64,000 nucleotides of DNA from Eledone cirrhosa (taxonomy: Eukaryota): NCBI GenBank assembly GCA_964016885.1, contig OZ024743.1, positions 102,672,001 to 102,736,000 on the forward strand. Direction: 5' to 3'. Shown here piece after piece: positions 5,806 through 53,507 of this stretch. The translations under genes were made by a program, and so were the position numbers. The notes beneath the pieces were generated by a model. It ran no database searches, had not been told where the DNA came from, and worked only from the letters and a program-made list of their open reading frames with translations. The stretch's first letter is position 1, and every line of letters starts with the position of its first letter.

Positions 5806-5912
5806 TAAATATATATATGTATACGAATAACATTAAAAAATAATGCTGATATTACATAAATCGTTTATTCATTATAATTATTTCAATGGTTCCCTTATGC
5901 AATCTTATATAT

Positions 5913-6517
5913 ATTATATTATATTATATTATATTATATTATATTATATTATATTATATTATATTATGTTATGTTATGTTATGTTATGTTATGTTATGTT
6001 ATGTTATGTTATGTTATGTTATGTTATGTTATGCTATGCTATGCTATGCTATGCTATGCTATGCTATGCTATGCTATGCAATGCAATGCTATGCTATGCT
6101 ATGCTATGCTATGCTATGCTATGCTATGCTATGCTATGCTATGTTATGTTATGTTATGTTATGTTATGTTATGTTATGTTATGTTATGTTATGTTATGTT
6201 ATGTTATGTTATGTTATGTTATATTATATTATATTATATTATATTATATTATATTATATTATATTATATTATATTATATATTATTTTATATTATATTATA
6301 TTATATTATATTATATTATATTATATTATATTATTTTATATTATATTATATTATATTATATTATATTATATTATATTATATTATATTATATTATATTATA
6401 TTATAATATAATATAATATAATATAATATAATATATTATATTATATTATATTATATTATATTATATTATATTATATTATATTATATTATATTATATTATA
6501 TTATATTATATTATATT
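5913..6517. repeat. Compound pentanucleotide microsatellite (ATATT/ATGTT/ATGCT/ATGCA)
   Basis: Directly visible 5-bp periodicity. Confidence 0.97.
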
Positions 6518-6518
6518 A

Positions 6519-19488: not shown

Positions 19489-19528
19489 GAGCTATATAAA
19501 TAGAGAGAGTTAAATAGATAGATAGATA

Positions 19529-22500: not shown

Positions 22501-23188
22501 CAAGGTTGGCCATGCAGGTCACTAGTTTGTGATCTGAATAGGCAACCATGAACATTTGTGGACAGCTTAACATGTCCCTATCCTTATTTCTAACTAGAAC
22601 CCTATCTAGGTACGATCTAGATGTTCCGCTACGATTACTCCACGTCCACAGTGGCGCAGTCGGAAAATCTAGTCGATATCTATCGGCCAGGTCAAATCGG
22701 TCGATTAACTGTTTGAGGCTGTTACACCCCCCTTTATCGGGACATGCTCCCACATAGTCCCACCATACAATCTCTTTCGCCATAGCTTTCACACAAAGGA
22801 AAACCGCCTCCCCCTCGTTTTTGAAGGAGGGTGCCGGTTTGATCATGACAATGGACTCGGTTGTCAACCGGATTGGTCCCACGCGCGACAATAGTCGTTC
22901 TACATAGCGTGTGCGACGGTTTCTTCGTCTCGCACGCATCTCGGACAGATCTTTTTCGAAGGGTCCCTGCCCGGGTGCCCATGTCTGCAGAGCTTGTTTC
23001 GAACTGGTAGAGCTCCTCGGTAGCACTGCCTGACCAGGGACTTTTGGAAGTTATCCATCGGTCCCAGGCGGCAGGTTCTACCGAACAGACTGGCCAGTTC
23101 GTCTTCCTCTACGCCTAGATTTTCTCCGAGCGCGTCGTCGCACTTGCTGCGGACCAACCCTCTATAGAATGACGAAATCTGCCTGCCA
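19529..23188 (-). mobile_element. L1/Tx1-like LINE (partial APE, RT, zinc knuckle, 3' UTR) with a chimeric 5' end, inserted in (GATA)n
   Basis: ORF2 motifs, AATAAA at the 3' end, and (TAGA)n on both flanks (~19514-19530 and 23189 onward). Confidence 0.92.
19772..22760 (-). pseudogene. Tx1-like ORF2 (APE C-terminal half, RT, CCHC) with one in-frame stop
   Basis: Motifs WTW...SYLDR...SDH (APE), KSPGLDG, FRPITLLN, DQSKAFD, QGCSLS, YADD, CPRC..H..C. ORFs 21758..23026 and 19772..21712 are in the same frame, separated by TGA at 21758-21760; the paralog at 31.5 kb has Cys at that position. Confidence 0.92.
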
Positions 23189-23198
23189 GATAGATAGG

Positions 23199-23261
<63 letters not shown>

Positions 23262-23751
23262 ATAGATAGATTGAAATTTATTATAGATTAAAATAAAGGT
23301 TTAGAAATTTAAGAATTTAAGAATTTAAAAATTAAAAAACTTAATTAAGAGGTAAGGGAAAAGATAGATTGTGCGTGCACACAGTCACATTACAGATACC
23401 AGTCATGTGAACGATTCGATTGAATGAGTTGAGACGTAATAAACAAATACTATATTAGCAACTGACGTCATTCACACGGAAAGCGAAGTAACCATCGATA
23501 AACGCTTGAAAACGACTTAGAAAAAATTTAAATCGAAATAAAATGTTATCCCAAAGAGAGGAACATTATCCACTGAAGGTTCCTTAAACCTTGATGAAAG
23601 GAATTTCAGGTCCCGAAATATTGGACAGATAAACGAAGAAAAACGACAACAACAAAACAAACATTACGAGGTAGCTTTTACTTTTCCTTACCTCATCTTA
23701 CAGTCCATTTTACATTGTCTAGCCTTCTATCTCTTTCAACGTTAAATAACT

Positions 23752-33435: not shown

Positions 33436-33967
33436 TAATTATGATATAGAGAAATGTGATTTATATGGAAAAGTATAAAAGAAATTGTTTATATAACAGT
33501 AAACAATGGATGACAGATTAAATCTGAGATTATGATTTCATTTTCTAATTCTTCTGTAAATCATCATTATTATATATTTATTTCTGCATAAATATATTTC
33601 TGCATAAATATATTTTATATTTTAATTTAATACAATTATGTATTGAAATGTTTACGTGAAAAAAGATTTAGTTTTCCGAAAAATCTCAAATTATAATGCT
33701 TATTACATCGTTGAATTCCTTTTCAATTGTCTTAAATACACTCTATAATCATAATCATCTTCAGTAACACTAGCAGGAAATTTACTACGACTACTACTGC
33801 TAATATCGTCATCATCATCATCATTAACATCATTGATATTTCTGCAAGTATTGTTATTATCGACATGCTCGTTATCATTCTTGTCATGGTGATATGTTTA
33901 TTGTTTAAAGCTGATATACTTGCCCCAAGACAATAGACATTTTAAGTTGCCGTATGTATGTACGTGT

Positions 33968-34580
33968 GTTCTTCACAAATTTTTGCCAAAAGAGAGAGAG
34001 TCGGTTTCTAACATAGACACAAGACTCTCTCATTGGAATTTACACAACAACAACTAGGTAGATTATTTATGTATGCATGTGTAGATATGGATGTTAGTGT
34101 ATGTGTGGATGTTGATGTTTTGAGTTGTATGTGTGCATGTGTATATGCTTTGAATCTGTACATGTGTATATGCAGTTATTAGATGCAACATTTTTGGAAT
34201 GTTTTACAAAGTTTTACTGCTCCATTAATAGATTGTACTTGTAATTTCCTAACTAGTTGTGTTCTTTCTCTTCCTGTGAAGCCTAGCTTCTCAAGATTTG
34301 TATTGAGGCAGTTACTAACATAACCCAGTGCCCCAATAATCACAGGCATAAATCTGAAGGTGTAATCTGGGTGGAGTATCTGCAGATTTCTCATCAGTTC
34401 TGCATAAATATTCTCCTTTTCGCTAATCTTTGATATTATATTGGGATCTGCTGGGCAGCTAATTTCCACTACTGGGCATGCTTTCTTCTCCCTGTCCCAT
34501 ATCATAATATCTGGTCTGTTATGCCTGAATTTTATTGGGGTTTCTACTGGAACATTCCACAAGTACTCTTTCATATTATA
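33968..34580 (-). mobile_element. 5'-truncated R4-like RLE retrotransposon (endonuclease plus 3' UTR)
   Basis: ORF 34179..34574 has RPDIMIWD...VEISCP...KENIY. It duplicates ~34640-35250. Short TATG repeats lie at both ends. Confidence 0.9.
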
Positions 34581-34639
34581 TATATGTATGTCTTCCTTTA
34601 TATTATGTATATGTACGTATGTATGTATGTTCTTCTGGT

Positions 34640-37600
34640 TTTATAATTTGACAATTTTTTCCCAATAGAGAGAGAGTCGGTTTCTAACATAAACACAAGA
34701 CTCTCTCATTGGAATTTACACAACATCAACTAGGTAGATTATGTATGCATGCATGTGTAGATATGGATGTTATTGTATGTGTGGATGTGGAGGCTTTTAG
34801 TTGTATGTGTGCATGTGTATATTCTTTGTATATGTATATGTGTATATGCAGTTATTAGATGCAAAGTTTTTTTGAATATTTTACATATTTTTACTGCTCC
34901 ATTAATAGATTGTAATTTCCTAACTAGTTGTGTTCTTTCTCTTCCTGTGAAGCCTAGCTTCTCAAGATTTGTATTGAGGCAGTTGCTAACATACCCCGGT
35001 GCCCCAATAATCACAGGCATAAATCTGAAGGTGTAATCTGGGTGGAGTATCTGCAGATTTCTCATCAGTTCTGCATAAATATTCTCCTTTTCGCTAATCT
35101 TTGATATTATATTGGCATCTGCTGGGCAGCTAATTTCCACTACTGTGCATGCTTTCTTCCCCCTGTCCCATATAATAATATCTGGTCTGTTATGCTTGCA
35201 TTTTATTGGGGTTTTTACTGGAACGTTCCACCAGTACTCTTTCATATTATGTACGTGGATGTCTTCCACATTGCTGTAGATTTTAATGTGTTTATTATCG
35301 GGGCTATCTTTTTTACGGACTGTACTGTACTGTGTTTTGGCCACTATATCATGCCTCATAGATAGATAGTAACGCGATGACATCTTTGGACAGCTACTGA
35401 TGACATGGGTGATATCCTCGATGTTAGTTCTGCAGAGGCTGCACTTGTTACCACATCTAGGTGTTTTGCCTGCATCCATATCTCTTTTGTGAATCAGGTT
35501 TTTCGTGTTAATATCCTGTTCTTTGATTGCAAAAGCGTATCCTTCAAAGTGGGAGCCAATATAGCGGTTGTTGGTCCAAGATAGACTACTTCCCTTATCT
35601 ATATTACTCTCGCTCTGGGGCTTCCTGGCCACATATCCATGCATGATTTTTTGCTGATAAGCATGCAGCTTTTCATCCATAGATTCACTGTGATAGTGCT
35701 GAGCGACTTCTCTGGGTGTGAGTTTTTGATTATCACACAGGGAATAGCTCTCGAGGCGTTGCTTCACAACTCTCATGATCTTATCTGTTTCATGCAGATA
35801 GACTTGCTCGATAGACGGGCTCCTACGCTTCGAGGTTCGTAGATGTTGTCCGAGGGATATGATGCGACATTCAAATGCTGTCTGGACAGATGTTAGGCCT
35901 CTGCCTCCCTGCTTACGTTTCAAGTAAAGGCGGTCTATGCCACTGTTGATGTGGAAGTTTCCGGTGTTGTTTAGTATTTTTCGAGTTCCAACATCAACTG
36001 CTCGGATTTCGTCTCTCGTCCAATTGAGTATTCCAAACGTTGGTGTTAGGACAGGCACAGCAAACACATTGTGAGCCACAGTTTTGTTTTGTGCAGAGAG
36101 TTCCGATGACCAAAGCTCTCTTAATCGGGTGTAGTATTCCCTGGTTACGTGTTCCTTATTACAGATACCATTATAGGATATGTCCTCATCTATCCCCAAG
36201 TATCTGTAGCAGTCCTCATCAGATATCGGTGAAACAGTTAGGCCATTCATGACAATGTTGCTAGATTGGGTTGTTGTTTTTCCCCGCTTTACAGTCATAT
36301 ATGAGCCAAACTACATTCATATATCCTTTGAGAGCGCTTCATCCCATCCCTGTTCTTGGCATTTAGTTTCAGATCGTCCACAAAGAAATTATGGATTAGG
36401 TTCGTGTTTCTGTCCTCCTGTGAGCCAATGATGTATCCTTCACATTTCTTGAGCAGGAAGGTCATGGAGTTTAATGACAGGATGAATAATATCACAGAGC
36501 GACTGTCTCCCTTAAATATATGCCTGGGATATTTTATTTTATCAGGGAAAATAGAGTCTTCCCTCTCTGTCTTTAACCTTAGGACAGTAACCCAAGTAGA
36601 AGACAGCCTCTCTATGGCTCTGACAATAATGTCTGGGACTTTAGCAAGTTGGAGGGCCTCTATAATCCAAGAGTGGGGAACAAAATCGAAAGCTTTGCTG
36701 TAGTCCAGCCAGACTGTAGCCATATTCCTCCTAAGTTGTCGCACCTCCGACATCGCAGTTTTGTTGATTAGGAGTTGTTCAGCACATCACCAAACGCCTT
36801 TCTTTCCAACTGCTTGTTCATCTGTGATGATGTTATTATTTCCACAATGATATTGGAGGAATAGGTTCAGGCAGGCTGTATACATCTTATACATCAGGTT
36901 CTGGCATGCAATGTGTCAGTATATTTTTTGCCAAGTGGGTGTCTTTCTTGGGGGGGACCAGTAATGTTTGTGCTAATGTCAACATTGTGGTATAAGTGTA
37001 TCTCCCATAAGAACTTGTTGGTAGAAGTCAGTAAGATACCTCCGATAGAATATCAGTTTTTTTGTAACAGTAGCCGGCAATCATGTCTTTTCCTGGTGTT
37101 TTCTTATCTCGGAGTTTTCCTATCACAGTCTCAAGGGTACCCTCCCTTATTTCGTATATTTTTGTTGTAGTGTAGGAACAATAGTTCTTTCGGATTTCTT
37201 TTAACCACACTGCATCTTGGTTGAAATTCTTCTTTTTACCCCATATTTTGCTCCAAAAGGAATCTATGTCTTTCTGGGATGGGGCCTCAGTGGCACTTAT
37301 TATTTTGTTCTTCATACCTCTATAGACTGATGTTTGGTTTCGTCTGAATCTTTTATTAAGCACATTTCTCTCATCTACCTTCTTCAGGTATCGGCGTTTT
37401 TCGCTAACAGATCTCAATTATTGTTTGAGGGTGATCAGATTATATTGAAGAGTTCTGGTTCCACTGTTACCAAACATCGTCTCTATTTTATTTTTCACTC
37501 TTTGTTGGTGAGGAGTGAGGTTTTTTTGTGTTTGTTTGCATGTAAGGAGCATTGTCACATATCCTATGGTTTTTCGTAGGTCAGCAATCTTTTTTTCTAT

Positions 37601-38830
37601 TTTAGTTATATATGATGGTATGTTTGGTGGTGTTTTGTTTTTGTCAATATCTCTGCTATCACCAAGATAATGCTTCACTCTCATTGCTAAGGCATATAAA
37701 CAGGCGTTGATTTGCCAAAATGTTGAGGTTTTTATCCGTCGTAAATATTCATCCTCTATTTCGTCAATAACACGTAATATTTCATTATTTGGTCTTTTAT
37801 TAAATATTGTCGTTTTAATACGTTCAGCAAGAGAGATATTTATACATGAATTAATATCTCTCTGGAAGATTTCGTTGAGGGAAATTTTCAATTGTTTATA
37901 CTTTTGATTATTATCATTATCGATAGTATTTTCCACAATAGTCGATGTAGACTCGGATGGTACACGTGGTGTCAAATTTCTTCGATTATTATTATTATAA
38001 GGCAGTGGATTGGCAGTATCAGTAGAGGGTCGGACGCCATTCTTTGCAGCAAAGAGTTACGGCCCTTTACGGTTTGAGTTCAAATCCCGCTGATGTTAAC
38101 TTTACCTTTCATCCTTACGGAGTCGATAAAATAAAGTACCAGTAATGTACTGGGTAAATGCTGGCCTTGTGCCTAAAGTAGAAACAATTATTATTATTTC
38201 TTCGATTATTATTATTATCGATATTGTTTTCTCCAGCATTCGAGGTAGACTTAGGTGGTACAGGTGGTATAAGTTTCTTACAGTCATAGTCATTTCAAGG
38301 CGCTGTTCGACCTGGCCGCTAGGAAGTCTAGTAGCATGGCGACCTGTAGCACGTGTTGTTGATCCCATGTTTGTTGTGGGGGACTTACAATTAATAATAC
38401 TTATCTTATTTTTACGTTCAACAAACGTCGCTTGTTGGCGTAATTGTTTCGCTGTGAAATAATTTAGCTCTGGGTGCATTTCGTCCCAGTGTAGCTTCAT
38501 TCTGTTCATATAGACAATGGAGGGATTGCTTTTTGCCATTTCATAACAATTAAATAAATCATTATTAAGTTCGCAACTCCCTGAGAAATGCGATTTATTA
38601 TTTCGGTTTCTTCTGTAGCTACAACTGAATAAAGTTTCTTTACATTTCTTGTTGTTTGTCTTCGATACTTCCTTAATTCTGTTGTTGATGTTATGTTCAG
38701 CTATGCTGTTTGTAGCAAAACCTTGTAAAATGAATTATGTATTTAGTCGGATATCTCTACGAATTCGAATAAAAGGTGTCTTCAGAAGATATAGTTAGAA
38801 GAATAACCAGTAATTCAACATGACTGTAGT
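34640..38830 (-). mobile_element. Near full-length decayed R4-like RLE retrotransposon
   Basis: Fragments include the N-terminal region (38102..38539), PGKD, WLDYSKAFD, FKGDS, FFVDDLKL, CSLC..H..C, RHD and RPD..EISCP. Paralogous to the 1169-aa ORF. Confidence 0.92.
37999..38195 (+). mobile_element. SINE inserted into the R4-like ORF, with a 23-bp TSD
   Basis: ATTTCTTCGATTATTATTATTAT occurs at 37976-37998 and 38196-38218. Confidence 0.92.
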
Positions 38831-38970
38831 TGTGGCATTACTGTCGGAGATTGTATTTAGCTTAAATTTAATAGTCTTCCACCCCAAAATATGCGACTGA
38901 TCGCGTTGACTGTGTGTGTATGTATGTATGTATGTATGTATGTATGTATGTATGTATGTATGTATGTATG

Positions 38971-41900
38971 TTTTCTCTTTCTCTTAATTTTGAGTATATT
39001 TTTTGACCGGCCACCTTCCTGGTGGCAAGGTTGTAAAAGAAAAGAAATTGTCATCCCTTGAATCGCAAGAATGTTTTGCAAATTTTGAAGGTGCCAGCTA
39101 TCGCAGCCATTTGTAGACTATGAATTAGGGAGCTGCGCTTTTTGTCCGCAAATCCAAGTTCAGTCATACTTTGGTCCAAGCGGGTTGGTATATAACCCGT
39201 AGCACCAATAATGATGGGTATGAAGCTAAAGGTGTATCTTGGATACTGGATTTGTAAACTCCTCATCAATGGTCCGTAGATGTCCTCCTTCTCCTGTATT
39301 TTTCTGATAACGTTTACATCAAGTGGGCAGCTGATCTCCACAACAGAACACGTTTTCAATGTGTGGTCCCAAACTACAATATCAGGCCGGTTGTGCTTTA
39401 ATTTGGTGGCAGTTTTTATTTTCAGGTTCCACCAGTATTCCTTAGTGCCATCTGTCTCAATATATTCTTCCTCGTTTGTTGTTGATTTTGTTTTCCGAAG
39501 TGCGTTCCAGATGGTTCTAGCTATCCCATCGTGTCTCATGGGGAGGTAGTAGCGAGATGACATTCTTTCGCAGCTGGCAACAATGTGGCTTACATCCTCG
39601 ATCTTTGTTTTACATAGCCTACATTTATTGTCAGCTGCTGGCCCTCCTCTTTTGTGCAGCAGATATTTGGTAGGGAGTTCTTGTTCCTGTATTGCATAGA
39701 GATATCCCTCAAGGTGTGATGTCATAAACTTGTCGGAACTCCATGCCAGGCTTTTTGAGTGGTTTATCCCCTCTATGGTCTGTGTTTTACGCCTCAAGTA
39801 TCCATGCACAACTTTTTCTGTAAATTGGTCAATTTTTTTTTCTTGTTTGAACATTGAATAGGATCTTCCGATTTCTCTGGGTGAGAGATTTATATCGGGC
39901 TTTATTCCATATCTCTCCTCCAGATCAGTCGCTATTCTAATGATATTTCTTTTTTCATGGTCATAAACCTGGGCAAGATGGTTGCCAACCTTTTTCCTCT
40001 GTTGAAGGTGTTGCTTCAGTGTCACTATCCGGGTCTCATATGTTGTTAATATTGATTTTAGACCCCGGCCACCTTCCTTGCGTGAGAAGTATAGCCTATC
40101 CACATCACCATTGATGTTAAAGTTCCCAGTAACACTGAGAAGTTTTCGAGTTCTAACATCCATCTCACTTAGTTCTTGCAATGACCAGTTCAGTAGGCCA
40201 AATGTTGGCGTTAGAATTGGCACAGCATAAGTATTGTGGGCAATGTATTTGTTGTATGCTGACAGTTCTGATGACCATATTTTCTTTACTCTTCTGAGGT
40301 ATTCAGTTCTGGTTCTCTCCTTATTTATGGGTCCATCATATCTGACATTCTCATCCTGTCCAAGATATCTGTAGTTGTCACCTGACTGCAGAGGTTGTAT
40401 TGTCAGGCCGTTCATCTCTAGATTTCTAGAGGAGGGCACAGCTCTTCCACGTTTTACTGCCAAATATGCACACTTGGACTCACCAAATTTCATTTTGATG
40501 TCGGTTGAAAATTGTGTAATGAGGTCCAATTGTTTCTTGATGTCATTGATATTTGGCCCATACAACTTCAGGTCATCAACAAAGAAAATATGGGAGATAC
40601 TTCTGGTCCCACTTCTTTGTCGACCTTGTTTCCTGAGTAGGTAAGATAGTGGATTCAGTGAGAGAACGAAGAGTAGCACTGACAAGCTATCACCCTGAAA
40701 GATGCCCTTCTGGTAATGTATCTTATCAGTCTTAACCTGCTCCTTCTCACCTCTAAGGATCAAACTGGTGTACCAGTTCTTGGTCAGGCGTTCTACAGCA
40801 GCTACCAATGGTTGTGGGACTTTAGCTAACTGTAAAGCCTTAACAATCCACCCATGAGGTACACTATCAAATGCTTTTTGATAGTCCAGCCACACGACAG
40901 TCATGTTTCTGCGATTCTTTGTTGTTTTTTCCTGAATCATTTTGTTAGTTAGTAGGTGATCTATGCAACCCCACACCTCCCTCTTTCCACCAGCTTGCTC
41001 AGGTGTTATGATGTTGTTGGTAACACAGTGATCCTGTAAGAACAGGTTAAGGCACCCAGTATATAATTTATACATGATGTTTTGGCAGGCAATTGGGCGG
41101 TAATTTTTAGCAAGGGTGGTTTGGCTATTTTTGGGAATGAGGAGAGTAGAGGCAGTTGATAACCATCTGGGCAGTTCTTGTGTGCCCTTAATGGTTTCTG
41201 TAAACAGCCGTATGAGATCTTGCCGATAGAAAGTGAAATTCTTCAACCAGTATCCTGTAATGAGGTCTGGGCCTGGCGATTTCCTATTCGACATTTTCTG
41301 TAGAGCTGTTTCCAGTATTGACCCATCTATGTCATATTGTTTTGTCTGGACATGTTGGCAGTAGTCCTGTTCCAGTTCTTTTAGCCAATTAGCTTGTCTG
41401 TTGAATCCGTCATCCGTTTCCCATACAGATCTCCAGTAGCTCTCAACCTGTTCTTTTGAAGGGGTGTCATTTACAGAGATTGAGCTTTTGCCACCGAAGC
41501 TGCGATAAACTGATTTAGGATCTCTGGCAAACAATCTATTTAGCACTTGTCGTTTATGTGCTGTTGACTTATATTTTAGTCTTTCTGTTGTAGCTGTGAG
41601 TTGTTGTTTCAACTGGTGTAATTTGGAGTTCAAAGTTTTAAATTTTGTATCTCCAAATCTTCTCTCTAACATTTTCTTTAGGTCTTCCTGGTGTTGTGTG
41701 AAGTTGCTCTCTATGTTGCATTTCATAACGACTGCGATGTGTGAGATACTTCGTCTCAGGGACAAAATTTTGGTTTTTAAATTTCGCATCCACGCTGGTT
41801 CAGGCTTTCTGTTTGTATCTTGATTGCGTGGTTTTAGATGTGTGTTATATGCTAGCAATGTGACAGCTGAAACATATAACAAAACATTAAGCGTTTCAAA

Positions 41901-42998
41901 TGTCGTTTCTACACCTTTATATCGTATAGCCTTCAGATAATTGCCAGCTATTTCGTTCACCGCTTCCAATTCCAATTTAGTGGGTTCTTTACTGACTCTA
42001 GTGTTGTATGGTCTGTCACTCACATTAAGGCTGTGTATCTCTTGAAACATATCATTCCATATCACTTGTAGGGAGCCCACAAGTTTTTGGTGCTCTGTTT
42101 GTTCAGTAGAGTCATGAATTTCAGCCTCGTTGTTGATGTGGTGACAATTGCTACTAGAGTCAGCTGACCTTTCTCGCTGTTCTTCAGTGGAAGTGGGATG
42201 AATTTCAGCAAAATTGTTGGTGAGCTGTTCACTGTTAGATTTAGCTGGCCATTCTCTTTGTCTGTCAGTGGAGGTGGGGTGGTTGTCTACAAGGGCTGTA
42301 TTTGTAGTATCACTCGATTCCGTTAGATGTATCAATTTACATCTAATGATACGTTTTGCCTGTTCATTTAAATGCTTTGGAGAAAAGTCTAATTCTGGGT
42401 GTTTGGAGTTCCATAAAGTTTTTAGCCGTTGCATAAAACCGAACTTTTGGGGTTCAGATTGTTTGTATGCTTCATATAATACTTTGTTAAGCTCGTAGGT
42501 CCACTGTGTACAACGGTTGTAATTGCGATTTGGTCGAAGGAGACTTGTACTTTTTGCCATGATGAGTTCGTCTATTCACTAATATTTCGTATTTATTTTT
42601 CAAAATAGTCGATGATCTTCTTTAAAAGTTACGACAAAGTTCTGTCAGAATCAAATTTAAAGTTATTCACAGCTTGGGTAATATTTCTTTTCAGTTAGTT
42701 TTTAATTCTACAGCTGTGTTTTATATAAATGTAATATTTCTTTATAAATGTAATATAACAACGTTGCATTTATATGTTAAAGTGTATGTATCGTTCATAT
42801 ATCATAAGTGTATGTATCGTTCATATAAATAGGTGTTTTACAACACACTTACAGTTCAAACACTTATGTAGAATTATTGTATGTAATCTTACCGCGTAAT
42901 GTAGCTCAACTTTTTCCAATATATGGTATGTTGCCTTCATGTAAGCCGTAATTACACACGTCCGATTATCGGACACTGACCACAACGGTCGCCATTTT
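38971..42998 (-). mobile_element. Apparently full-length R4-clade-like RLE retrotransposon flanked by (CATA)n
   Basis: Single intact ORF, ~440-nt 5' UTR, 80-nt 3' UTR with hairpin GCCACC-AGGAA-GGTGGC, and (TATG)n arrays at ~38917-38970 and ~43006-43212. Confidence 0.93.
39051..42560 (-). CDS. Non-LTR retrotransposon polyprotein: Myb-like N-terminus, reverse transcriptase, CCHC, PD-(D/E)xK restriction-like endonuclease (1169 aa)
   Basis: Uninterrupted ORF with WTYELN, SPGPD, YRPIAC, WLDYQKAFDSV, GIFQGDSLS, FVDDLKL, YLG, CRLC-x8-H-x4-C, RHD and RPDI..VEISCP. Confidence 0.95.
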   Translation of the reverse strand: MAKSTSLLRPNRNYNRCTQWTYELNKVLYEAYKQSEPQKFGFMQRLKTLWNSKHPELDFSPKHLNEQAKRIIRCKLIHLTESSDTTNTALVDNHPTSTDRQREWPAKSNSEQLTNNFAEIHPTSTEEQRERSADSSSNCHHINNEAEIHDSTEQTEHQKLVGSLQVIWNDMFQEIHSLNVSDRPYNTRVSKEPTKLELEAVNEIAGNYLKAIRYKGVETTFETLNVLLYVSAVTLLAYNTHLKPRNQDTNRKPEPAWMRNLKTKILSLRRSISHIAVVMKCNIESNFTQHQEDLKKMLERRFGDTKFKTLNSKLHQLKQQLTATTERLKYKSTAHKRQVLNRLFARDPKSVYRSFGGKSSISVNDTPSKEQVESYWRSVWETDDGFNRQANWLKELEQDYCQHVQTKQYDIDGSILETALQKMSNRKSPGPDLITGYWLKNFTFYRQDLIRLFTETIKGTQELPRWLSTASTLLIPKNSQTTLAKNYRPIACQNIMYKLYTGCLNLFLQDHCVTNNIITPEQAGGKREVWGCIDHLLTNKMIQEKTTKNRRNMTVVWLDYQKAFDSVPHGWIVKALQLAKVPQPLVAAVERLTKNWYTSLILRGEKEQVKTDKIHYQKGIFQGDSLSVLLFVLSLNPLSYLLRKQGRQRSGTRSISHIFFVDDLKLYGPNINDIKKQLDLITQFSTDIKMKFGESKCAYLAVKRGRAVPSSRNLEMNGLTIQPLQSGDNYRYLGQDENVRYDGPINKERTRTEYLRRVKKIWSSELSAYNKYIAHNTYAVPILTPTFGLLNWSLQELSEMDVRTRKLLSVTGNFNINGDVDRLYFSRKEGGRGLKSILTTYETRIVTLKQHLQQRKKVGNHLAQVYDHEKRNIIRIATDLEERYGIKPDINLSPREIGRSYSMFKQEKKIDQFTEKVVHGYLRRKTQTIEGINHSKSLAWSSDKFMTSHLEGYLYAIQEQELPTKYLLHKRGGPAADNKCRLCKTKIEDVSHIVASCERMSSRYYLPMRHDGIARTIWNALRKTKSTTNEEEYIETDGTKEYWWNLKIKTATKLKHNRPDIVVWDHTLKTCSVVEISCPLDVNVIRKIQEKEDIYGPLMRSLQIQYPRYTFSFIPIIIGATGYIPTRLDQSMTELGFADKKRSSLIHSLQMAAIAGTFKICKTFLRFKG

Positions 42999-42999
42999 A

Positions 43000-43035
<36 letters not shown>

Positions 43036-43213
43036 TGTATGTATGTATGTATGTATGTTTATTTGTATGTATGTATGTATGTATGTATGTATGTATGTAT
43101 GTATGTATGTATGTATGTATGTATGTATGTATGTACGTACGTACGTATGTATGTATGTATGTACGTATGTACGTACCTATGTATATATGTATGTATGTAC
43201 GTATGTATGTATG

Positions 43214-44230
43214 CCAAATATCTTGGAGTGGTTGATAAGTTTGTCTACTTGGGAAGCACTGTCACTCGATACAGCAACCTTGATAATGAAATCCCTCTCA
43301 GGATTAGGAAAGCAAGTGATGCTTTCGGAAAGTTAGAAAGGTGCCTCAGGGATCGGCGAGACATATGCAAGAAGACAAAGGTAAAGTTGTACAAGGCATG
43401 TGTGCTCTCTTCTCATCTTTATGCATGCGAGACCTGGGTCACATATCAACACCACCTTAAACAATTGGAGCGTTTCCATCTGATGTGCCTCAGACAGATC
43501 CATAGCGTTCACTGGCGGGACCACATCAGTGATGTCGAGATTTTGGAAAGCTCTTTGTGTGACAGTATAGAAGCTTTTGTGCTTAAGTAAAGATTCCGTT
43601 GGAGTGGGCACCTTGCCAGGATGAAGTATTCTAGAATACCAAAAAAAACTCTTTTATGGACAGTTAGTTAAAGGAGAACGACCGCCACATAAACCAAAAA
43701 GAGGTATAAGGATTCGTTGAAAGCCTCTTTGAAAGATGCTAACATCTCTGCTGATACATGGGAAAATGTTGCCGCTGACCGTAACAAATGGAGAAAGACA
43801 AATGGAGAAAGACTGTATATGAGGGGAAAGATGCCTTTGAGGCTTCTCGAATCGCATACGAAAAAGTAAAGCCGAATGTGAGGATGGGAATTACTGGTGC
43901 ATTTCCAGACAACGGTCCTATTATGGCGCTGAGATGCAGTGTCTGTACGAGATTCTGTCTCCGTAAAGCTGGACTTGAAAGTCATCTTCGCAGTCATAAA
44001 GTGAGACCAGTGGTTGACTGCCAGGCTGCTGTTGGAGATGCTACTCATCATGCCTGTCAACATGTGGTAGAGAGTGTAAATCAGCAGAAGGGCTCAAACG
44101 ACATGCAAAAGTACACGAACACCAACCACAGTCGGCTATTCCCAGTGAATGTTTTGGTTGCCAACTCCGTGCAAGACATTTTAGATCATTGGTTGGGCTA
44201 AAAAGCCACATTCGATCGCAGGACTGTTAA
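43214..44230 (+). mobile_element. 5'-truncated, decayed RTE(BovB)-like LINE with C-terminal C2H2 zinc fingers
   Basis: VDKFVYLGS, RIRKASDAFGKL, LYACETW, LERFH..CLR.I...W.D and RWSGHLARM; CSVCTRFCLRKAGLESHLRSH plus two further finger remnants. Confidence 0.88.
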
Positions 44231-44323: not shown

Positions 44324-44430
44324 ATCCCGCCGAGGTTAACTTTGCCTTTCATCCTTCCGGGGTCGATAGAATAAAGTACCAGTAATGCATTGGGTAATTG
44401 CTGGCCTTGTGCCAAAAGTAGAAACAATTA
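44324..44430 (+). mobile_element. 5'-truncated SINE followed by (TTA)n
   Basis: ATCCCGCCGAGGTTAAC...GTAGAAACAATTATT. Confidence 0.88.
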
Positions 44431-44447
44431 TTATTATAATAATAATA

Positions 44448-44497
<50 letters not shown>

Positions 44498-44700
44498 AGT
44501 TGCATTTATCTTGCTTTATGTTCATACGAGTTATCACCAAGTCACAACCAGTGACCTCAAGAGACAACAATGTCCGCCATGTTCAAGAAAGAACATACAT
44601 ATTCACACATGCATCTTTAGTGTTTAGACTTGTGATGGACTTATATTGACAGAATCTTCCTTAGTATATGGGCAGTTTCCATTAGTATATTATTATTATT

Positions 44701-47700
44701 GTTTTTTGAGTCTCTGTCATCGATGTTAGTTAACTGGAAAGTTTGTTGAAATGAATATCAAGCCACTACCTGCAGCCTCAGATATTCAGGACGTATCGGA
44801 GGGTTATTGCTGTTCCCAGCAAGCATGCCTTTTGAAGTGTTCCAAAAAGCGGGGCGGAGCCAATTTTCTTTAACCATCGCTGGAAACCTTTTGAGATAGT
44901 ACCTAGTGCGCCTATGACAATCGGGACCACTTTGACTTCATGGCAGTTCCAAATGCTTTTTACCTCCCACTTTAAGTCCTGGTATCGGTTAATTTTCTCC
45001 CTCTCCTTCTCTTGCACTCTCGTGTCGAATGGGCAGGCCACATCCACAATCAGACACGATCTTTTTTCCTTGTCCAAAACCACCAGGTAAGGTCAGGTCT
45101 ATTGTGTTCCAGTTTCTTGTCCGTCTGTATCCTAAAATCCCATAGCATCTTCACCTGATCGTTTTCTATCACCGACTCTGGCTTATGCTCATACCACTTC
45201 TCAGAATGTGGTAAATTGTTTACTTTGCATAAGTGCCAGTGGATCACCCTGCCCATCACATCATGTCTCCAGCCTTTATAGTGAGTCTGGGCTAGGTGTT
45301 TACATTCGGATACAATGTGTACCACAGTTTCCTCTCTCTCTCTCCACAGATCCTGTACAGTGCGCTAGCCTCCTCCTCGAGGGCCTGCTCTTGCGCAGCC
45401 ATTAGCATTCCTTCTGTAGCCTTTTTAAGGTCTCCTCTTCTCAACCAGTTCCATGTCTGTGGATCTCTGAATTCCGTTTTCTCAAAGAAGGTACTATGAA
45501 GGGATTTTTTCATGAAGGCTGCTATTTCTCCTTGTTGTATTTCCGCCTTGGACATCCCCTGGTCTAATGTCCTCTCTTTCAGTACAATTCTGAGCATTGG
45601 CTCCTTACTATCGGTCACGTATTTGTGTAGGTTGTTTTTCTCCATCTGAACACAGTCCTCTATGCTGATAAGACCTCTTCCACCTTCAGATCTCCTTAAG
45701 TAGAGTCTAACTACATTACTCCTCTTGTGGAACATGTTGTAGATAGTCAATAGCTCCCTAGTCTTCCTATCCATTTATTTTTGTTCAGCAACATTCCATC
45801 TCAGAATTCCCGCACTGTACCTAATAATAGACACAGCTCGGGAATGTACTGCACTTATGGCATTCCTACTGTTCAGATGTGACTTTAATACGCTCTTTAC
45901 TCTCCGAATGTATTCAGATCTTATCAATTTCTTCATTGTTTTGTTCTTGATGCCATCGGCCTCCAGAATACCCAAATACTTGTATCCTTCTTCAGTGTCA
46001 ATTTCCTTTATCATCTCACCTGTTGGTATCAGGATTCCGTTGCTTCTGCTCAATTTACCCCTCTTCATCACAAGGACTCCACACTTACTAATACCAAATT
46101 GCATACATATATCATTGCTGAAAATACGGACAGTGTCAACAAGCACATGAAACTCCTCACGCTTCCCGAAAAGCTTAAGATCGTCCATGAAGAGGAGGGT
46201 GATTGATGGTAAGCTCTCCCTTTCCCAACTTGTATCCTGCTCTCACTTTTCGCAGTATAATGGTCAGGGTGTATCAGGGCAAGGACAAACAGCAGAGGGG
46301 ACAGACTATCTCCCTGGAAGATACCTCTCTTGATCTTCACGCCTCCCAAGGATTCTCCAGCTGATGTTAACTCTGTTTTCCAGGACTTCATACTTTGGCT
46401 CAACAACTGTCTGATGTTATCTGCCACCTTGAAGATCTCTAGGCTTTTGGTGATCCAAGAATGAGGCACCATGTCAAATGCCTTTTTGTAGTCTATCCAT
46501 CCCATGGCAAGACCAGTGTGTCTCCTCTTGCAATTCCTCATTACCATCTTCTCAATAAGTAACTGGTCCTTTGTACCACGGGACTTCTTTCGGCATCCTT
46601 TCTGTTCGTCCGGTAACAAGTTGTTTGTGTGAAGGTGATGGTAGATTTCCTCAGACACAATGCTTGTCAACAGTTTCCACATTACGGACAGACATGTGAT
46701 AGGTCTATAGTTGGTAACATCATTACCCTTGATTCGGTCTTTCAATACCAGAAATGTGGTACCTTTTGTCAACCACTCTGGTACCTCACCTGACATCAAG
46801 CAGTCATTGAACATGGTTGTCAGTTTCGGGTGGAGGGATGTTACATGTTTAATTCAATACGCCTGCACACCATCTGAGCCTGGTGATTTCCAGTTGGTTA
46901 GTTTTTTGGCCTGTCCCTTAAGAGTTTCAACTGTCATACTCAAATCAGTTTGTTGGTGTGCCTGTTCACTAATCTCCTTTTGTACTGTCTCAATCCACAC
47001 TGCCTGGTCATTATGTTTAACATCCTGCTCCCATATTCCTCTCCAGAATGTCTTAGTTTGTTCCGCCTCAGGTATCAAATCGTTGCCTCTTTCTTTCCCT
47101 TCAAGCTATCCAAACAACAACTTCTGGTTGTTGTCAAACATGCGGTTTTGTCTATACTGACTGACTCTGCTCTCGTATCGCCTAATTTTTGCACTCTTTG
47201 CTACAATGCGTTGCTTCAGTTCCTCTATGATAATATTTAGCTTTTTCCTCCTAGTTTTGTACTTTATTTCCAGTCTATTTTTTGTCTATGTTTTTTAGTG
47301 TCCCATTCAGTAGGGACTCAAGCTTTCTAATGTCATTTCTCATTTCCCTGATTGGACCATTCAGTCGTTTCTTCCACCAAGGTTCTGATCTTTCTTGTTT
47401 GTTGTTTCCTCTCGCTTTTATGCCAAGTAATTTACTCACCGCATTTGCTGTTGCTTTGAGCATATTGTTGCACTGGTGAAGGCTCCTCGCCTCAAGGTAT
47501 GGGATGACTTTGTTTACCTTAGCTGTTGTTTCTTTTAACTTTTCCTGTCTACAAATCTTAGGTTCATAGGTTTCCCACTATCATTGTTCATTTCATCTAC
47601 CACTAAGTTTAGGATATCAACCAAATCTTGTCCTAGTCAGTCAGCATTCATCTCTTCAATGGCCGTATCTTTGTTCCAGGTATTATTTATTTCAGCATGC

Positions 47701-47985
47701 AGATCATTGTCTGCTTCGGATGGTTCCTCCGTTCTCTCAACCTCTTCACCTTCATTTCCCACTGGCTTGTGTGCCTGGCATACTCCACTCTCCATTTCCA
47801 ACCTATCTCTCTGCTCAGTTCCTCTAGTTCCAGCTCGCTTATCCACCCATTAGTTCTTATTACCCGAGCCTGCCCGGCCAATATTTGTTCATCTAATTTA
47901 AATAGACCAATCTCGTTCCAGATGTGATGCATCCGTTTTCTATAGCATTTTTCCTTGGGTTACTCTTCAGATTGACCGGGTCATC
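44701..47985 (-). mobile_element. Decayed Dong/R4-like RLE retrotransposon ending in (TAA)n
   Basis: Frameshifted pieces: PWWKKRL, NWKSPGSDG, YRPITCL, WIDYKKAFD, GIFQGDSLSP, MDDLKL, AAQEQAL, RHD, RPD..DVACP. Confidence 0.92.
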
Positions 47986-48515
47986 AAATGAGTCTATTTA
48001 TATATTTTGATGCCTTCCTCATTTAGTGGGAATACTACGATGCCTGTCTTAGCAGGAGGTAGTGGGAGAGAATAGCGGCGGTAGCGATAATGAGGCAGTG
48101 GTGGTGGTGATGTGATCGTAGTACTGTAGTGATGATGTTGAAGTTGAAGTAGAAATAGAAGTTGAGGTAAGTTGACTAGAGTTCTTGGCGTGGTAGTGGT
48201 GATGGTGGCGGTGGTGGTGTTGGTGGTGAAATTATTTGCCTGTCTGTCCACTTAGCCATTTTTCTCTTTTTCGACTATAACATTTCTGATCCAAAATTAA
48301 ATATTAAATATTGGGGCCCTATGCCGTAATGTGATGCGTTGCCGCTTGCTGAATGTCAAAACTGTAATCTTATCTCATATTTCATTTGAAATAAGAATTA
48401 TTCTATCACAGTTGTTTTAAATAAGTAAAAATCAAAAACTTACGGGAGCGATTCCATAACGATATATATCCACCATGTGCGTTTTCTTCCCATTCTTCCC
48501 ATTATTATTATTATT

Positions 48516-48716
48516 AAGGGCGGTGGATTGGCAGTATCGGTAGAGGGTCGGACGCCATGCTTTCCAGCATAGTTACGTCCCTTTACGATCTGAGTTCAAA
48601 TCCCGCCGAGGTTGACTTTGCCTTTCATCCTTACGGGGTCGATAAAATAAAGTACCAGTAATGCACTGGGTAATTGCTGGCCTTGTGCCTAAAGTAGAAA
48701 CAATTATTATTATTAT
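48516..48716 (+). mobile_element. SINE, full length, in (TTA)n
   Basis: Family consensus from GGCGGTGGATTGGCAG to GTAGAAACAATTATT. Confidence 0.9.
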
Positions 48717-48725
48717 TGTTGTTAT

Positions 48726-49623
48726 TCCTTGAATCTCAGTCATTGATGTTGGTTAACTGGAAAGTCCGTTGGAATGAATATCAAGCCACTACCTGCAGCC
48801 TCAGATATTCAGGACGTATCGGAGGGTTCTTGCTGTTCCAAGCAAGCATGCCTTTTGAAGCGTTCCAAAAAGCGTGACGGGACCGATTTTCTTTAACCAT
48901 CCCTGGAAACTTTTGGAGATAGTCCCCAGTGCGCCTATGACAATCGGGATCACTTTGACTTCATGGCAGTTCCAAATCCTTTTCACCTCCCACTTTAGGT
49001 CCTGGTATCGGTTAATTTTCTCCCTCTCCTTCTCTTGCACTCTCGTGTCGAAAGGGCAGGCCACATCCACAATCAGACACGATCTTTTTTCTTTGTCCAC
49101 AACCACCAGGTCAGGTCTATTGTGTTCCAGTTTTTTGTCCGTCTGTATCCTAAAATCCCACAGCACCTTCACTTGATTGTTCTCCACCACCGCCTCTGGC
49201 CTATGCTCATACCATTTCTCAGAGTGTGGTAAATTGTTTACTTTGCACAGGTGCCAGTGGATCACCCTGCCCATCACATCGTGTCTCCAGCCCTTATAGT
49301 GGGTCTGGGCTCGGTGTTTACACTCGGACACAATGTGAGCCACAGTCTCCTCTCTCTCTCCACAGATCCTGCACAGTGGGCTAGCCTCCTCCTTGTAAAT
49401 ATGGTGCTTCAACCACTTCGTTTTGAGGGCCTGCTCCTGCGCAGCCATTAGCATTCCTTCTGTAGCCTTTTTGAGGTCTCCTCTTCTCAACCAGTTCCAT
49501 GTCTGTGGATCTCTAAATTCAGTTTTCTCAAAGAAGGTACTATGAAGGGATTTTCCCTTAAGGCTGCTCTTCCTCCTTGATGTTATTTCCTCCTTGGACA
49601 TCCCCTGACCTACTGTCCCCTCC
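48726..49623 (-). mobile_element. 5'-truncated Dong/R4-like copy with an open CCHC-RLE frame, flanked by (TTA)n
   Basis: ORF 48801..49601 has CRIC..H..C, RHD and RPDLV..DVACP. Paralog of ~44701-45570. TTA repeats on both sides. Confidence 0.92.
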
Positions 49624-49655
<32 letters not shown>

Positions 49656-51563: not shown

Positions 51564-51905
51564 ATGATGATGGCTGCCCCCTCGATATCGAGTATGGCCA
51601 TTGCACGATATAACATTATTAAAAATTATCAATTAATGCTATTTTTTATTCAGGCTTTTCCTCTCTTAAAAAGGTCTTGTGACAACAACTGGGGGCCTTT
51701 CACTCCCAGGTAAAAAAGAAGGTACTATCTGAGAAAGTACTCTGCTGAGTTCCTCCACCCTTTGTCGGGTCTTGTATTTCATCTCACTGGGTGTCCGAAT
51801 ATCACCCTCCTCACCAAGCAAGCTCGGTTTAGTCGCCGACGACCCGACCATGAAACAGGTTGTACTGGGTTACATGTTACCAGTACCACTCGAGAGCGAC
51901 CTGAC
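51564..51905 (-). mobile_element. ~340-bp non-autonomous RTE-like unit
   Basis: Shares its head (GTCAGGTC...CTGGTAACATGTA.CCCAGTACAACCTG...GGCGACTAAAC) and a related tail with the two ~610-bp units. CATA repeats on both flanks. Confidence 0.65.
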
Positions 51906-51939
51906 ACATATATACATACATGCATGCATGCATACATAC

Positions 51940-52547
51940 ATGGTGGCTGCCAACTCATTTTCGAGTACGGCCACTACTTTATATCCATGTAGGAGTACCC
52001 CTACCGATGCGCTGAACAAGTGTGACTTTTTAGTCCAACCAACGACTTGAAAACTCTGGTACAAACACTACACTTGTTACAATTATTGACACATAGTGCT
52101 GGACCCATGGTACCATGTGATGACAAGTGCAAGGGATCTCCAGATATAAAGCAATGCCTGTGCCGTGAAGCTTTTATAGTGAGCAAAGGCACTGCACAAA
52201 GCCAGTCCCACTCTCTTAACCAAGATGATATTTACCAAAAAGAAGAACAAGTCAACATCATTGGATACCATCAGGGTTGCAGGTGTTATATCAGAGTTTT
52301 CCTTCTCCTAGAATTCTGCCTTGACAAAGGCTAAGGGGTCATCTCTCCCGGTAATTTTGGATGGCCATTGACTCTTAAGAGCTCATTGCCCTTTGACAGG
52401 TTTTGTTTTTAGTCCTGCAGGATGTCCAAAGTCACCCTCCTCATCAAGAAACCTTGGTGGGGTTGCCAGTTTAGTCGCCAACGACCCGACAATGAGACAG
52501 GTTGTACTGGGATACATGTTACCAGTAGCACCAAATGGTGACCTGAC
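51940..52547 (-). mobile_element. ~610-bp non-autonomous RTE-derived unit, copy 1
   Basis: The 3' part encodes CSVCTRVFKSLVGLKSH, matching the last finger of the RTE at ~44.2 kb. Direct repeat of 52899-53507. Confidence 0.75.
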
Positions 52548-52898
52548 CATACGTGTGCGCGCGCGACATGCAACGCACGCTTCGCACCAGATAAATGAAC
52601 CACCGCTCGGCGACGGCCCCGTCCCTTCTCAATCGAGTGAGCGAAGAAACTACGGATGTGGCGGTTTCTCATCGACGCAAACGCGCACGGTACCCGACCG
52701 ACGGCGAACGCCGCCGCAAAGCCGATCGGTCGGTGTAGACCGGGGGCCGACCCGCAACCGACGCTGCCGCCATCCGAGAGACGCAAGAATGCTCCCACCT
52801 ATTCTACGCCTACCGTGTGCCCTCACATACATACATACATACATACATACATACATACATACATACATACATACATACATACATACATACATACATAC

Positions 52899-53507
52899 AT
52901 GGTGGCTGCCAACTCGTTTTCGAGTACGGCCACTACTTTATATCCATGTAGGAGAACCCCTACCGATGCGCTGAACGAATGTGACTTTTTAGTCCAGCCA
53001 GCGACTTGAAAACTCTGGTACAAACACTACACTTGTGACAATTATTGACACAGTGCTGGGCCCATGGTACCATATGAGGACAAGTTCAGAGAGATCTCCA
53101 GATATAAAGCAATGCCTGTGCCGTGAAGCTTTTATGGTGAGCAAAGGCACTGCACAAAGCCAGTCCCACTCTCTTAACCAAGATGATATTTACCAAAAAG
53201 AAGAACAATTCAACATCATTGGATACCATCAGGGTTGCAGGTGTTATATCAGAGTTTTCCTTCTCCTAGAATTCTACCTTGACAAAGGCTAAGGGGTCAT
53301 CTCTCCCTGTGATTTTGGATGGCCATTGACTCTTAAGAGCCCCTTTGCCTTTTGACAGGTTTTGTTTTTAGTCCTGCAGGATGTCCAAAGTCACTCTCCT
53401 CACCAAGCAACCTTGGTGGGGTTGCCAGTTTAGTCGCCAACGACCCGACATATGGGACAGGTTGTACTGGGATACATGTTACCAGTAGCACCAACTGGTG
53501 ACCTGAC
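52899..53507 (-). mobile_element. ~610-bp non-autonomous RTE-derived unit, copy 2
   Basis: Highly similar to 51940-52547, with (CATA)n on both sides. Confidence 0.75.

What the first reader, a model, noticed from the sequence alone, without database searches (positions are those of the whole stretch)
33951..43212. Intact R4-like retrotransposon heading a same-orientation stack of three copies at (CATA)n: candidate new target specificity
Seen: three related RLE elements (33968-34580, 34640-38830, 38971-42998) are all on the minus strand, and each 3' end abuts TATG repeats. The third has an uninterrupted 1169-aa ORF, both UTRs and long arrays on both sides. Established: R4-clade elements are site-specific (R4 in rDNA, Dong in TAA repeats). 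Inference: a potentially active, compact (CATA)n-specific lineage, distinct from the TAA-associated Dong-like family next to it. That would make it of interest as a sequence-directed integration enzyme.
Basis: partly seen in the sequence, partly recalled or inferred. Interest (0 to 1): 0.72.

Follow-up and report, generated by a model that had tools for sequence, protein, structure and literature searches.

The report
Young retrotransposon targeting CATA microsatellites
This is an intact, very young jumping gene whose copies across this animal genome sit almost only inside CATA repeats and always face the same way, likely because its own enzyme cuts that repeat; it belongs to a branch of Dong/R4-type elements that likely switched from the usual three-letter TAA target to four-letter repeats.

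Summary
Real, and mostly as described. The third element (38971-42998, minus strand) has an open 1169-aa ORF: Myb-like N-terminus, RT, CCHC knuckle and restriction-like endonuclease. It heads a very young family, A (13 full-length copies 99.6% alike; 6 of 13 keep the 1169-aa ORF). Genome-wide, 36 of 36 3' junctions read GAGAAAA|CAT. A CATA array precedes 32 of 34 full-length and 22 of 25 truncated 5' ends, never TATG; background is 0.5%. The two flanks of one copy share that locus's own repeat variants (112 versus 36 expected), so the arrays predate insertion and are not tails. Correction: the stack holds two families. The other two copies are an older family, B (48% protein identity to A), with the same target. 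A and B form a separate clade from the neighbouring TAA family (25 of 25 TAA); two relatives from metagenomes end in (CTTA)n. Active Dong-R4 families in octopus are published; a CATA target was not found in eight paper searches, but Repbase and Fell 2025 could not be read. This scan reported the same family before, elsewhere in this genome. Verdict: new target variant of a known kind; enzymatic specificity untested.

The parts
33953..33968 (.). Short degenerate TATG tract at the 3' end of E1
   Evidence: sequence
33969..34582 (-). E1: 5'-truncated 3' fragment of family B (end of CCHC/RLE region and 3' UTR)
   Evidence: 93% to E2 over 612 nt; 51% aa to residues 1029-1164 of E3
34583..34629 (.). 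Imperfect TATG/TA spacer between E1 and E2
   Evidence: TRF 34610-34630, 5.2 copies; sequence
34630..38912 (-). E2: full-length but dead family-B copy (frameshifts, stops); ends CCAGAAGAA|CATA, starts CAGTCAACG
37980..38218 (+). SINE-like repeat inserted into E2 in the opposite orientation, (ATT)n tail, about 18-bp duplication on both sides
   Evidence: eight other matches in the window; sequence; tRNA-like head read by eye, not tested
38913..38970 (.). (TATG)n array: 3' flank of E3 and 5' flank of E2
   Evidence: TRF 14.8 copies, 98% matches
38971..42998 (-). E3: full-length, intact family-A element, 4028 bp; starts AAAATGGCG, ends GAGAAAGAGAAAA|CATA
38971..39050 (-). 3' UTR of E3, 80 nt, with a short GC-rich hairpin
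   Evidence: folding z -1.6, not significant
39051..42560 (-). ORF, 1169 aa: three-helix Myb-like domain (about 20-75), disordered linker (81-147), RT (FFVDD, D662-D663), CCHC (C980, C983, H992, C997), RLE (R1009-H1010, P1059-D1060, E1075, K1091-x-x-I-Y)
   Evidence: Pfam RVT_1 E 5.7e-25; alignments; AlphaFold pLDDT 87.6; best fold match R2Tg, Z 32.0, rmsd 4.7, 783 aligned
42561..42998 (-). 5' UTR of E3, 438 nt; no convincing HDV-like ribozyme
42999..43213 (.). (TATG)54 array, 5' flank of E3
   Evidence: TRF 91% matches
43214..44220 (+). 5'-truncated, decayed RTE-like fragment (C-terminal C2H2 fingers) starting at the far end of the same array, opposite orientation
   Evidence: translation; the RTE label is recalled from motif likeness, not from a family search

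Best explanation
E3 is an intact member of a very young, single-ORF R4/Dong-type retrotransposon family whose copies sit in existing (CATA)n microsatellites in one fixed orientation, likely because its protein binds the repeat and nicks the TATG strand to prime reverse transcription of its own RNA. Shown: precise 3' junction GAGAAAA|CAT, CATA arrays upstream of full-length and truncated copies, arrays older than the insertions, intact catalytic motifs. Inferred from R2 biochemistry: the N-terminal Myb-like domain reads the repeat, the RLE nicks the bottom strand at TATG^, and target-primed reverse transcription starts there. Inferred from flanks: recognition leans upstream (upstream tract usually longer, downstream may be one CAT), duplication is short or absent, and 5' joining uses a few bases of microhomology. 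Each insertion leaves CATA on both sides, so later copies land beside earlier ones in the same orientation; that explains this stack (older family B first, young family A later). A and B belong to one old branch that uses four-letter C(A/T)TA repeats and appears to derive from TAA-targeting Dong-like elements.
For: Family A (30 of 40 scored hits fetched per search; 1192 and 635 first-look candidates): 3' flank begins CAT in 36 of 36, CATA in 35, CATACATA in 31; CATA array upstream in 32 of 34 full-length and 22 of 25 internal starts; TATG 0 of 59; background 400 of 79,440. (TA)n arrays outnumber perfect CATA arrays 141 to 2 in the 200-kb background, yet every 3' junction starts with CAT. Own flanks share 112 non-pure 8-mers against a null mean of 36, maximum 74 in 5000 shuffles (30 loci), e.g. 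CCTA variants on both sides of L015 and L020. Upstream tract longer in 22 of 30 (median 103.5 vs 49 bp, p 0.003). Family B: 3' CATA 30 of 30 (DNA-anchored) and 28 of 29 (found with an outside protein), 5' CATA 22 of 25 full-length, 17 of 22 and 12 of 17 internal, TATG 0. Neighbour family D: 25 of 25 TAA. Youth: 13 full-length A copies 99.47-99.85% alike, 6 of 13 with the 1169-aa ORF. Tree: A and B in a clade with support 1.0/0.999 that excludes D; its sister is a TAA-flanked element. In-clade metagenome loci: L236 (CTTA)n at both ends, L239 (CTTA)n at the 3' end. The same 3' junction appears in another sample's contigs (X7: 28 loose ends with consensus ending TATGTATG). The first lysine of the R2 K..KY motif, reported as catalytic (PMC4838377, passages), is kept.
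Against: No biochemistry, no empty allele, no expression data. Samples are the best-scoring hits, so biased to young copies. 5 of 59 A 5' junctions and 5 of 17 B internal starts lack the array; most look like later deletions or insertions but this was not shown. The CATA count in the 40 nt next to the junction is not significantly higher upstream (16 vs 10, p 0.2), so the upstream bias rests on tract length only. Many flanks are CATA/TATA/CACA mixtures and one (L076) is ATAA-rich, so the recognised word may be looser than a pure array. Of 4 in-clade metagenome loci, L237 shows only two CATA-like units and L238 none. The second lysine of K..KY is Ile in A and B. The Myb label is a lead (Atlas score 0.86). 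The tree root rests on one distant outgroup, and no named Dong or R4 sequence was in the tree.
Confidence: 0.8

Rival explanations
1. RNA-guided placement: the transcript runs on into CAUA repeats, anneals to a nicked or frayed TATG strand and so picks the site; the endonuclease itself is only weakly specific.
For: Every 3' junction starts with CAT, which a short RNA tail would also give. RTE-like elements in the same arrays end in the repeat on the other strand. 5' junctions show some microhomology (mean 1.8 vs 0.8 nt, 18 of 25 scorable).
Against: Downstream CATA can be one unit while upstream tracts are long (L007/L033, L040, L048), the reverse of what tail pairing needs. 5 of 36 downstream flanks depart from CATACATA within 8 bases. 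The protein keeps a folded Myb-like domain and all RLE motifs.
Confidence: 0.14
2. The arrays are made by the element (encoded or slipped 3' tail, repeats added at the 5' join), with insertion at near-random sites.
For: Perfect CATA arrays are rare in background (2 in 200 kb) while the clade is very abundant (39,789 first-look candidates), so insertions may lengthen arrays.
Against: Truncated copies have upstream arrays (22 of 25), flanks share locus-specific variants, and compound repeats continue across the insertion, e.g. (CA)n(CATA)n upstream and (TA)n downstream at L033.
Confidence: 0.03
3. Selection, not targeting: insertion is broad but only copies in microsatellite-rich neutral DNA survive.
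For: The genome is rich in microsatellites.
Against: Base-precise junction, strict strand (0 of 59 TATG), no use of the far commoner (TA)n, and a different exclusive repeat for the neighbouring TAA family.
Confidence: 0.03

Closest known systems
Dong (Bombyx mori, Anopheles, Biomphalaria, Darwinula Dong1/2), R4 clade
   Same: Single ORF with Myb/SANT-like N-terminus and no N-terminal zinc finger, RT, CCHC and RLE; inserts into a microsatellite in fixed orientation (definition from PMC7998251, passages read).
   Different: [quoted passage not shown] Only about 31-36% identity to TAA-type proteins. No convincing 5' HDV-like ribozyme, which silkmoth Dong has (PMC3774820, passages). K..IY instead of K..KY.
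'Dong-R4' LINE families of Octopus vulgaris and O. bimaculoides
   Same: Recently active Dong-R4 families are reported: 5 families, 1129 young insertions averaging about 4.2 kb in O. vulgaris (PMC13282606, Table 1). A full-ORF Dong consensus is known from O. bimaculoides (PMC9115989, passages). Family A may well be one of these.
   Different: Neither paper's main text names a target sequence (term searches).
R4 of nematodes (rDNA-specific)
   Same: Same clade and domain order (PMC7998251).
   Different: R4 inserts at one site of the large-subunit rRNA gene; this family uses dispersed microsatellites.
R2 (R2Bm, R2Tg)
   Same: Closest solved structures: Z 32.0, rmsd 4.7 over 783 residues to R2Tg; the TPRT mechanism is borrowed from them.
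   Different: 17-21% identity; R2 has N-terminal zinc fingers plus Myb and targets 28S rDNA.
Togen and microsatellite-specific HERO families
   Same: RLE elements specific for microsatellites, e.g. Togen for (TG)n (PMC4640811, passages): repeat targeting has arisen several times.
   Different: Other clades and other repeat units; not compared by sequence here.

Membership tests
RLE non-LTR retrotransposons | Single ORF with RT followed by CCHC knuckle and PD-(D/E)..K endonuclease; no LTRs; variable 5' truncation with fixed 3' end | tested here: met
R4/Dong clade | No N-terminal zinc finger | tested here: met
   No C2H2 or CCHC motif before the RT in the translation or alignment
R4/Dong clade | Diverged N-terminal Myb/SANT-like domain | tested here: inconclusive
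   Conserved W..Y..W pattern shared with insect relatives; three helices at 22-74 with pLDDT about 90; best Atlas hit Rap1 Myb at 0.86, a lead only; no Pfam Myb hit
R4/Dong clade | RT phylogeny groups with named R4, Dong, Rex6 | tested here: inconclusive
   No named reference could be fetched. The clade groups with TAA-flanked elements and Bombyx and Pediculus proteins (about 460-500 bits) and is far from R2 (about 100 bits). HERO and NeSL were not in the tree.
R4/Dong clade | Inserts into rDNA or a microsatellite | tested here: met
Dong in the narrow sense | (TAA)n target | tested here: not met
   36 of 36 3' junctions begin CAT, none TAA; neighbour family D meets it 25 of 25
Dong in the narrow sense | HDV-like ribozyme at the 5' end | tested here: inconclusive
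   No Rfam ribozyme match. A loose home-made descriptor gave only a weak internal hit for A, none for B or L236, a 5'-terminal hit for TAA-type L316, and none for two other TAA-type loci. Cleavage not assayed.
R2 | 28S rDNA site and N-terminal zinc finger plus Myb | tested here: not met
Any site-specific RLE element | Sequence-specific nicking and TPRT in vitro | not testable with these tools
   needs purified protein

The most novel reading that the evidence does not exclude
An old, undescribed branch of the R4/Dong clade switched from three-letter (TAA)n to four-letter C(A/T)TA repeats, reading them with one compact Myb-like domain placed upstream of the cut, and dropped the 5' ribozyme. Family A is still moving. 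With CATA, CTTA and TAA users side by side, it is a ready natural series for showing how RLE retrotransposons change target, and a small zinc-finger-free integration enzyme.
Probability: 0.5. Interest if true: 0.66.

Novelty: new variant of a known kind. Interest (0 to 1): 0.52.

Why it matters
How site-specific retrotransposons change target is an open question, and the N-terminal DNA-binding module is the usual suspect (argued for Dong in PMC7998251). Here young, intact elements with different repeat targets (CATA family A, TAA family D in the same genome, CTTA relatives elsewhere) allow domain swaps and substrate tests. It also explains part of the layout of this genome: hundreds to thousands of copies pile up in one orientation on one microsatellite. 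Tool interest is modest: RLE proteins are being developed for gene insertion (PMC13580325), but a dispersed repeat is not a safe single site.

Tried and rejected
Single-sequence AlphaFold gave a useless model (pLDDT 34.6); the 64-sequence alignment worked. Rfam on 38500-43300 and on L057 gave only microsatellite-driven miRNA matches below threshold. UTR folds of A were not significant (z -1.6). Sequencing runs: no RNA holder listed, which says nothing on expression. No empty allele was sought: contigs break in the arrays and both read-laying runs went to the element. The first metagenome scan with the single protein found no relative; the alignment scan did (best 80 of 344). The viral collection gave one TAA-flanked relative. 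The fold search could not test the N-terminal domain (rows span 218-1169). Synonymous versus replacement counts among 5 intact copies were too few to read. An IQ-TREE run timed out; FastTree was used. I first took the 610-bp element found next to many copies for a same-strand partner SINE; its reverse strand encodes C2H2 fingers and it ends in a (TATG)n tail, so it is the 3' end of an RTE-like element on the other strand. A long target-site duplication was rejected by eye: L010, L033 and L047 allow at most about 4 bp, L006 shows CATT on both sides. Papers not held: Fell 2025, Xiong and Eickbush 1993, Burke 1995, Biedler 2015; Kojima and Fujiwara 2004 seen only as a reference.

Full report
1. 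The observation. Three RLE-type retrotransposon copies lie head to tail on the minus strand between 33969 and 42998. E3 (38971-42998, 4028 bp) has one open frame of 1169 aa from 42560 to 39051, a 438-nt 5' UTR and an 80-nt 3' UTR, between (TATG)14.8 and (TATG)54. E1 and E2 are 93% identical to each other but share only 48-51% protein identity with E3. The stack is therefore one copy of family A and two of family B. E2 really starts at 38912, is frameshifted and holds a SINE-like insert. An RTE-like fragment starts at the far end of the long array on the other strand. A third RLE family, D, lies at about 44.7-49.6 kb with 32% identity. The host is likely an octopod: the nearest named proteins come from Argonauta hians.

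2. The protein. Pfam finds RVT_1 (E 5.7e-25). The alignment shows FFVDD in the RT, a complete C-x2-C-x8-H-x4-C knuckle, and RH, PD, E and K of the endonuclease. The K..KY motif of R2 reads K..IY in A and B; the first lysine, the catalytic one in R2Bm (PMC4838377, passages), is kept. There is no N-terminal zinc finger. AlphaFold with 64 sequences (pLDDT 87.6, pTM 0.80) gives a three-helix domain at 22-74, a disordered linker and an R2-like body; the best structural matches are R2 proteins (Z 32.0, rmsd 4.7, 783 aligned). The three-helix domain resembles Myb by Atlas features at 0.86, which is a lead only; a diverged Myb/SANT domain is reported for R4/Dong (PMC7998251, passages).

3. Family A is young. 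The 3' end has 1192 first-look candidates in the genome and the 5' end 635; all 40 scored hits were 100% and 99-100% identical (lower bounds, not copy numbers). Thirteen full-length copies are 99.47-99.85% alike and 6 of 13 keep the 1169-aa frame. Family B is older (mean 94% over the last 260 bp of 30 copies). Activity today is inferred, not shown.

4. The target. I fetched 30 of the 40 scored hits of each search and extended 20 of them. After removing duplicates, 36 of 36 3' junctions read GAGAAAA|CAT, 35 CATA, 31 CATACATA. A CATA array (20 of 24 bases, within 12 nt) precedes 32 of 34 full-length starts and 22 of 25 internal starts; TATG precedes none. The same test is met at 400 of 79,440 background positions. 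Misses: L041 and L045 (short duplicated element pieces amid CATA/TA), L011, L032, L058 (other sequence or an internal deletion). Family B gives 3' CATA in 30 of 30 and 28 of 29, and 5' CATA in 22 of 25 full-length, 17 of 22 and 12 of 17 internal starts; the second sample came from a search with an outside protein (30 of 150 scored), so it was not chosen for its flank. Family D ends in TAA in 25 of 25 and has TAA upstream in most truncated copies.

5. Target or tail. Across 30 copies with both flanks, the upstream and downstream 100 nt share 112 non-pure 8-mers, against a mean of 36 and a maximum of 74 in 5000 random pairings. Examples are CCTA (L015, L020), CATTTGTA (L031), CATAAATA (L025) and GATA (L050). 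The element has split an existing array. The upstream tract is the longer in 22 of 30 (median 103.5 vs 49 bp, p 0.003), though the CATA count in the nearest 40 nt does not differ (p 0.2). Duplications are at most about 4 bp where they can be read (by eye). Truncated 5' ends share a mean of 1.8 bases with the repeat against 0.8 expected (18 of 25 scorable).

6. Beyond this genome. A protein search shows a block of relatives at 39-62% identity, then a drop to about 33%. In trees of 100 and more sequences (only proteins of 800-1350 aa kept) A and B fall in that block's clade with support 1.0, and D falls outside. With one distant outgroup, the clade (0.999) nests among TAA-flanked elements, sister to L316, which has TAA at both ends (0.952); the root is uncertain and no named Dong or R4 was present. 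Of 4 in-clade metagenome loci, L236 has (CTTA)n at both ends, L239 ends in (CTTA)n, L237 has two CATA-like units and L238 none; of the out-of-clade loci that reach their 3' end most show TAA, with single cases of CT, CAA and poly(A). The CTTA lead came from earlier scan note e1-9581481 and was tested here. In run X7 (another coded organism, copies mostly 90-99% alike) 28 contigs leave the 3' end into a consensus ending TATGTATG (agreement 0.55); this is modest support, and the relation of these samples to the host is unknown.

7. Mechanism. Shown: precise 3' end, strict strand, pre-existing arrays, intact enzyme motifs. Inferred from R2: binding by the N-terminal domain, bottom-strand nick in TATG, target-primed reverse transcription. 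Inferred here: upstream-weighted recognition and self-renewing stacks, since each insertion leaves a target on each side. The main rival is placement by a CAUA RNA tail with a loose nuclease (0.14). The 5' end shows no convincing HDV-like ribozyme, unlike silkmoth Dong (PMC3774820, passages); it begins AAAATGGCG, which I recall as a YY1-type motif (recalled, untested). Full-length starts often carry an extra TA before it, which may mean the RNA begins in upstream repeat.

8. What is known. R4/Dong elements carry RT and RLE and insert into rDNA or microsatellites, Dong into (TAA)n (PMC7998251, passages). Other RLE clades have microsatellite specialists (PMC4640811, passages). Young Dong-R4 families are published for Octopus (PMC13282606, part 1 of 3 and passages; PMC9115989 and PMC8967140, passages), with no target named in the text searched. 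Eight searches found no paper giving a CATA or CTTA target; (CATA, CTTA, Dong, non-LTR retrotransposon, microsatellite; four of five) returned none. Repbase, Dfam, Fell 2025 (described in PMC13580325, passages), Kojima and Fujiwara 2004 and all supplements were not seen and may list it. This scan has reported the same family at least six times elsewhere in this genome; those notes are not independent evidence.

9. Verdict. A real, well-supported target change within a known clade: new variant of a known kind, interest 0.52. It works like Dong and probably belongs to the R4 clade, but it fails the TAA criterion of Dong proper.

Noticed in passing
L057:805-1420 and loci L211-L235; window motif hits near 51843-53480: A roughly 610-bp 3' piece of an RTE-like element (C2H2 fingers, terminal hairpin, (TATG)n tail) recurs at near-fixed length (1070 candidates, 98-100% alike) in the same arrays on the opposite strand; 17 of 25 pass the CATA test at the tail end, and several sit in pure (TA)n.
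   Followed up: partly
window 19514-23271: A GC-rich Tx1/L1-like element on the minus strand lies between (ATAG)4.8 and (AGAT)21: a possible GATA-repeat-targeting family.
   Followed up: no
window 44427-49650: Two copies of TAA-targeting family D stacked with another short 3' fragment (about 44500-44690) and a SINE on (TAA)n tracts.
   Followed up: partly
window 37980-38218 and eight other places: An abundant SINE-like repeat with an (ATT)n tail, tied to ATT/TAA tracts, here with a roughly 18-bp duplication inside E2.
   Followed up: no
family A positions about 2070, 3163, 3490, 3595; family B about 3651-3657 (E1, L082, L086, L110): Independent copies are truncated at nearly the same points; the family-B point lies at an internal CATA-like stretch.
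   Followed up: partly
L242, L254, L256 (5' ends): Three TAA-type relatives from metagenomes begin with what looks like a tRNA-derived head, read by eye.
   Followed up: no
L255, L266, L299, L248 (3' ends): Other out-of-clade relatives end in (CT)n, (CAA)n or poly(A): possibly further target changes.
   Followed up: no
L236, L239: The two CTTA-ending relatives have 3' UTRs of over 1 kb, against 80 nt in family A.
   Followed up: no
window 5905-6518: (TTATA)122 pentanucleotide array.
   Followed up: no
window 57659-59413: GIY-YIG and RT fragments on opposite strands, possibly a Penelope-like element.
   Followed up: no
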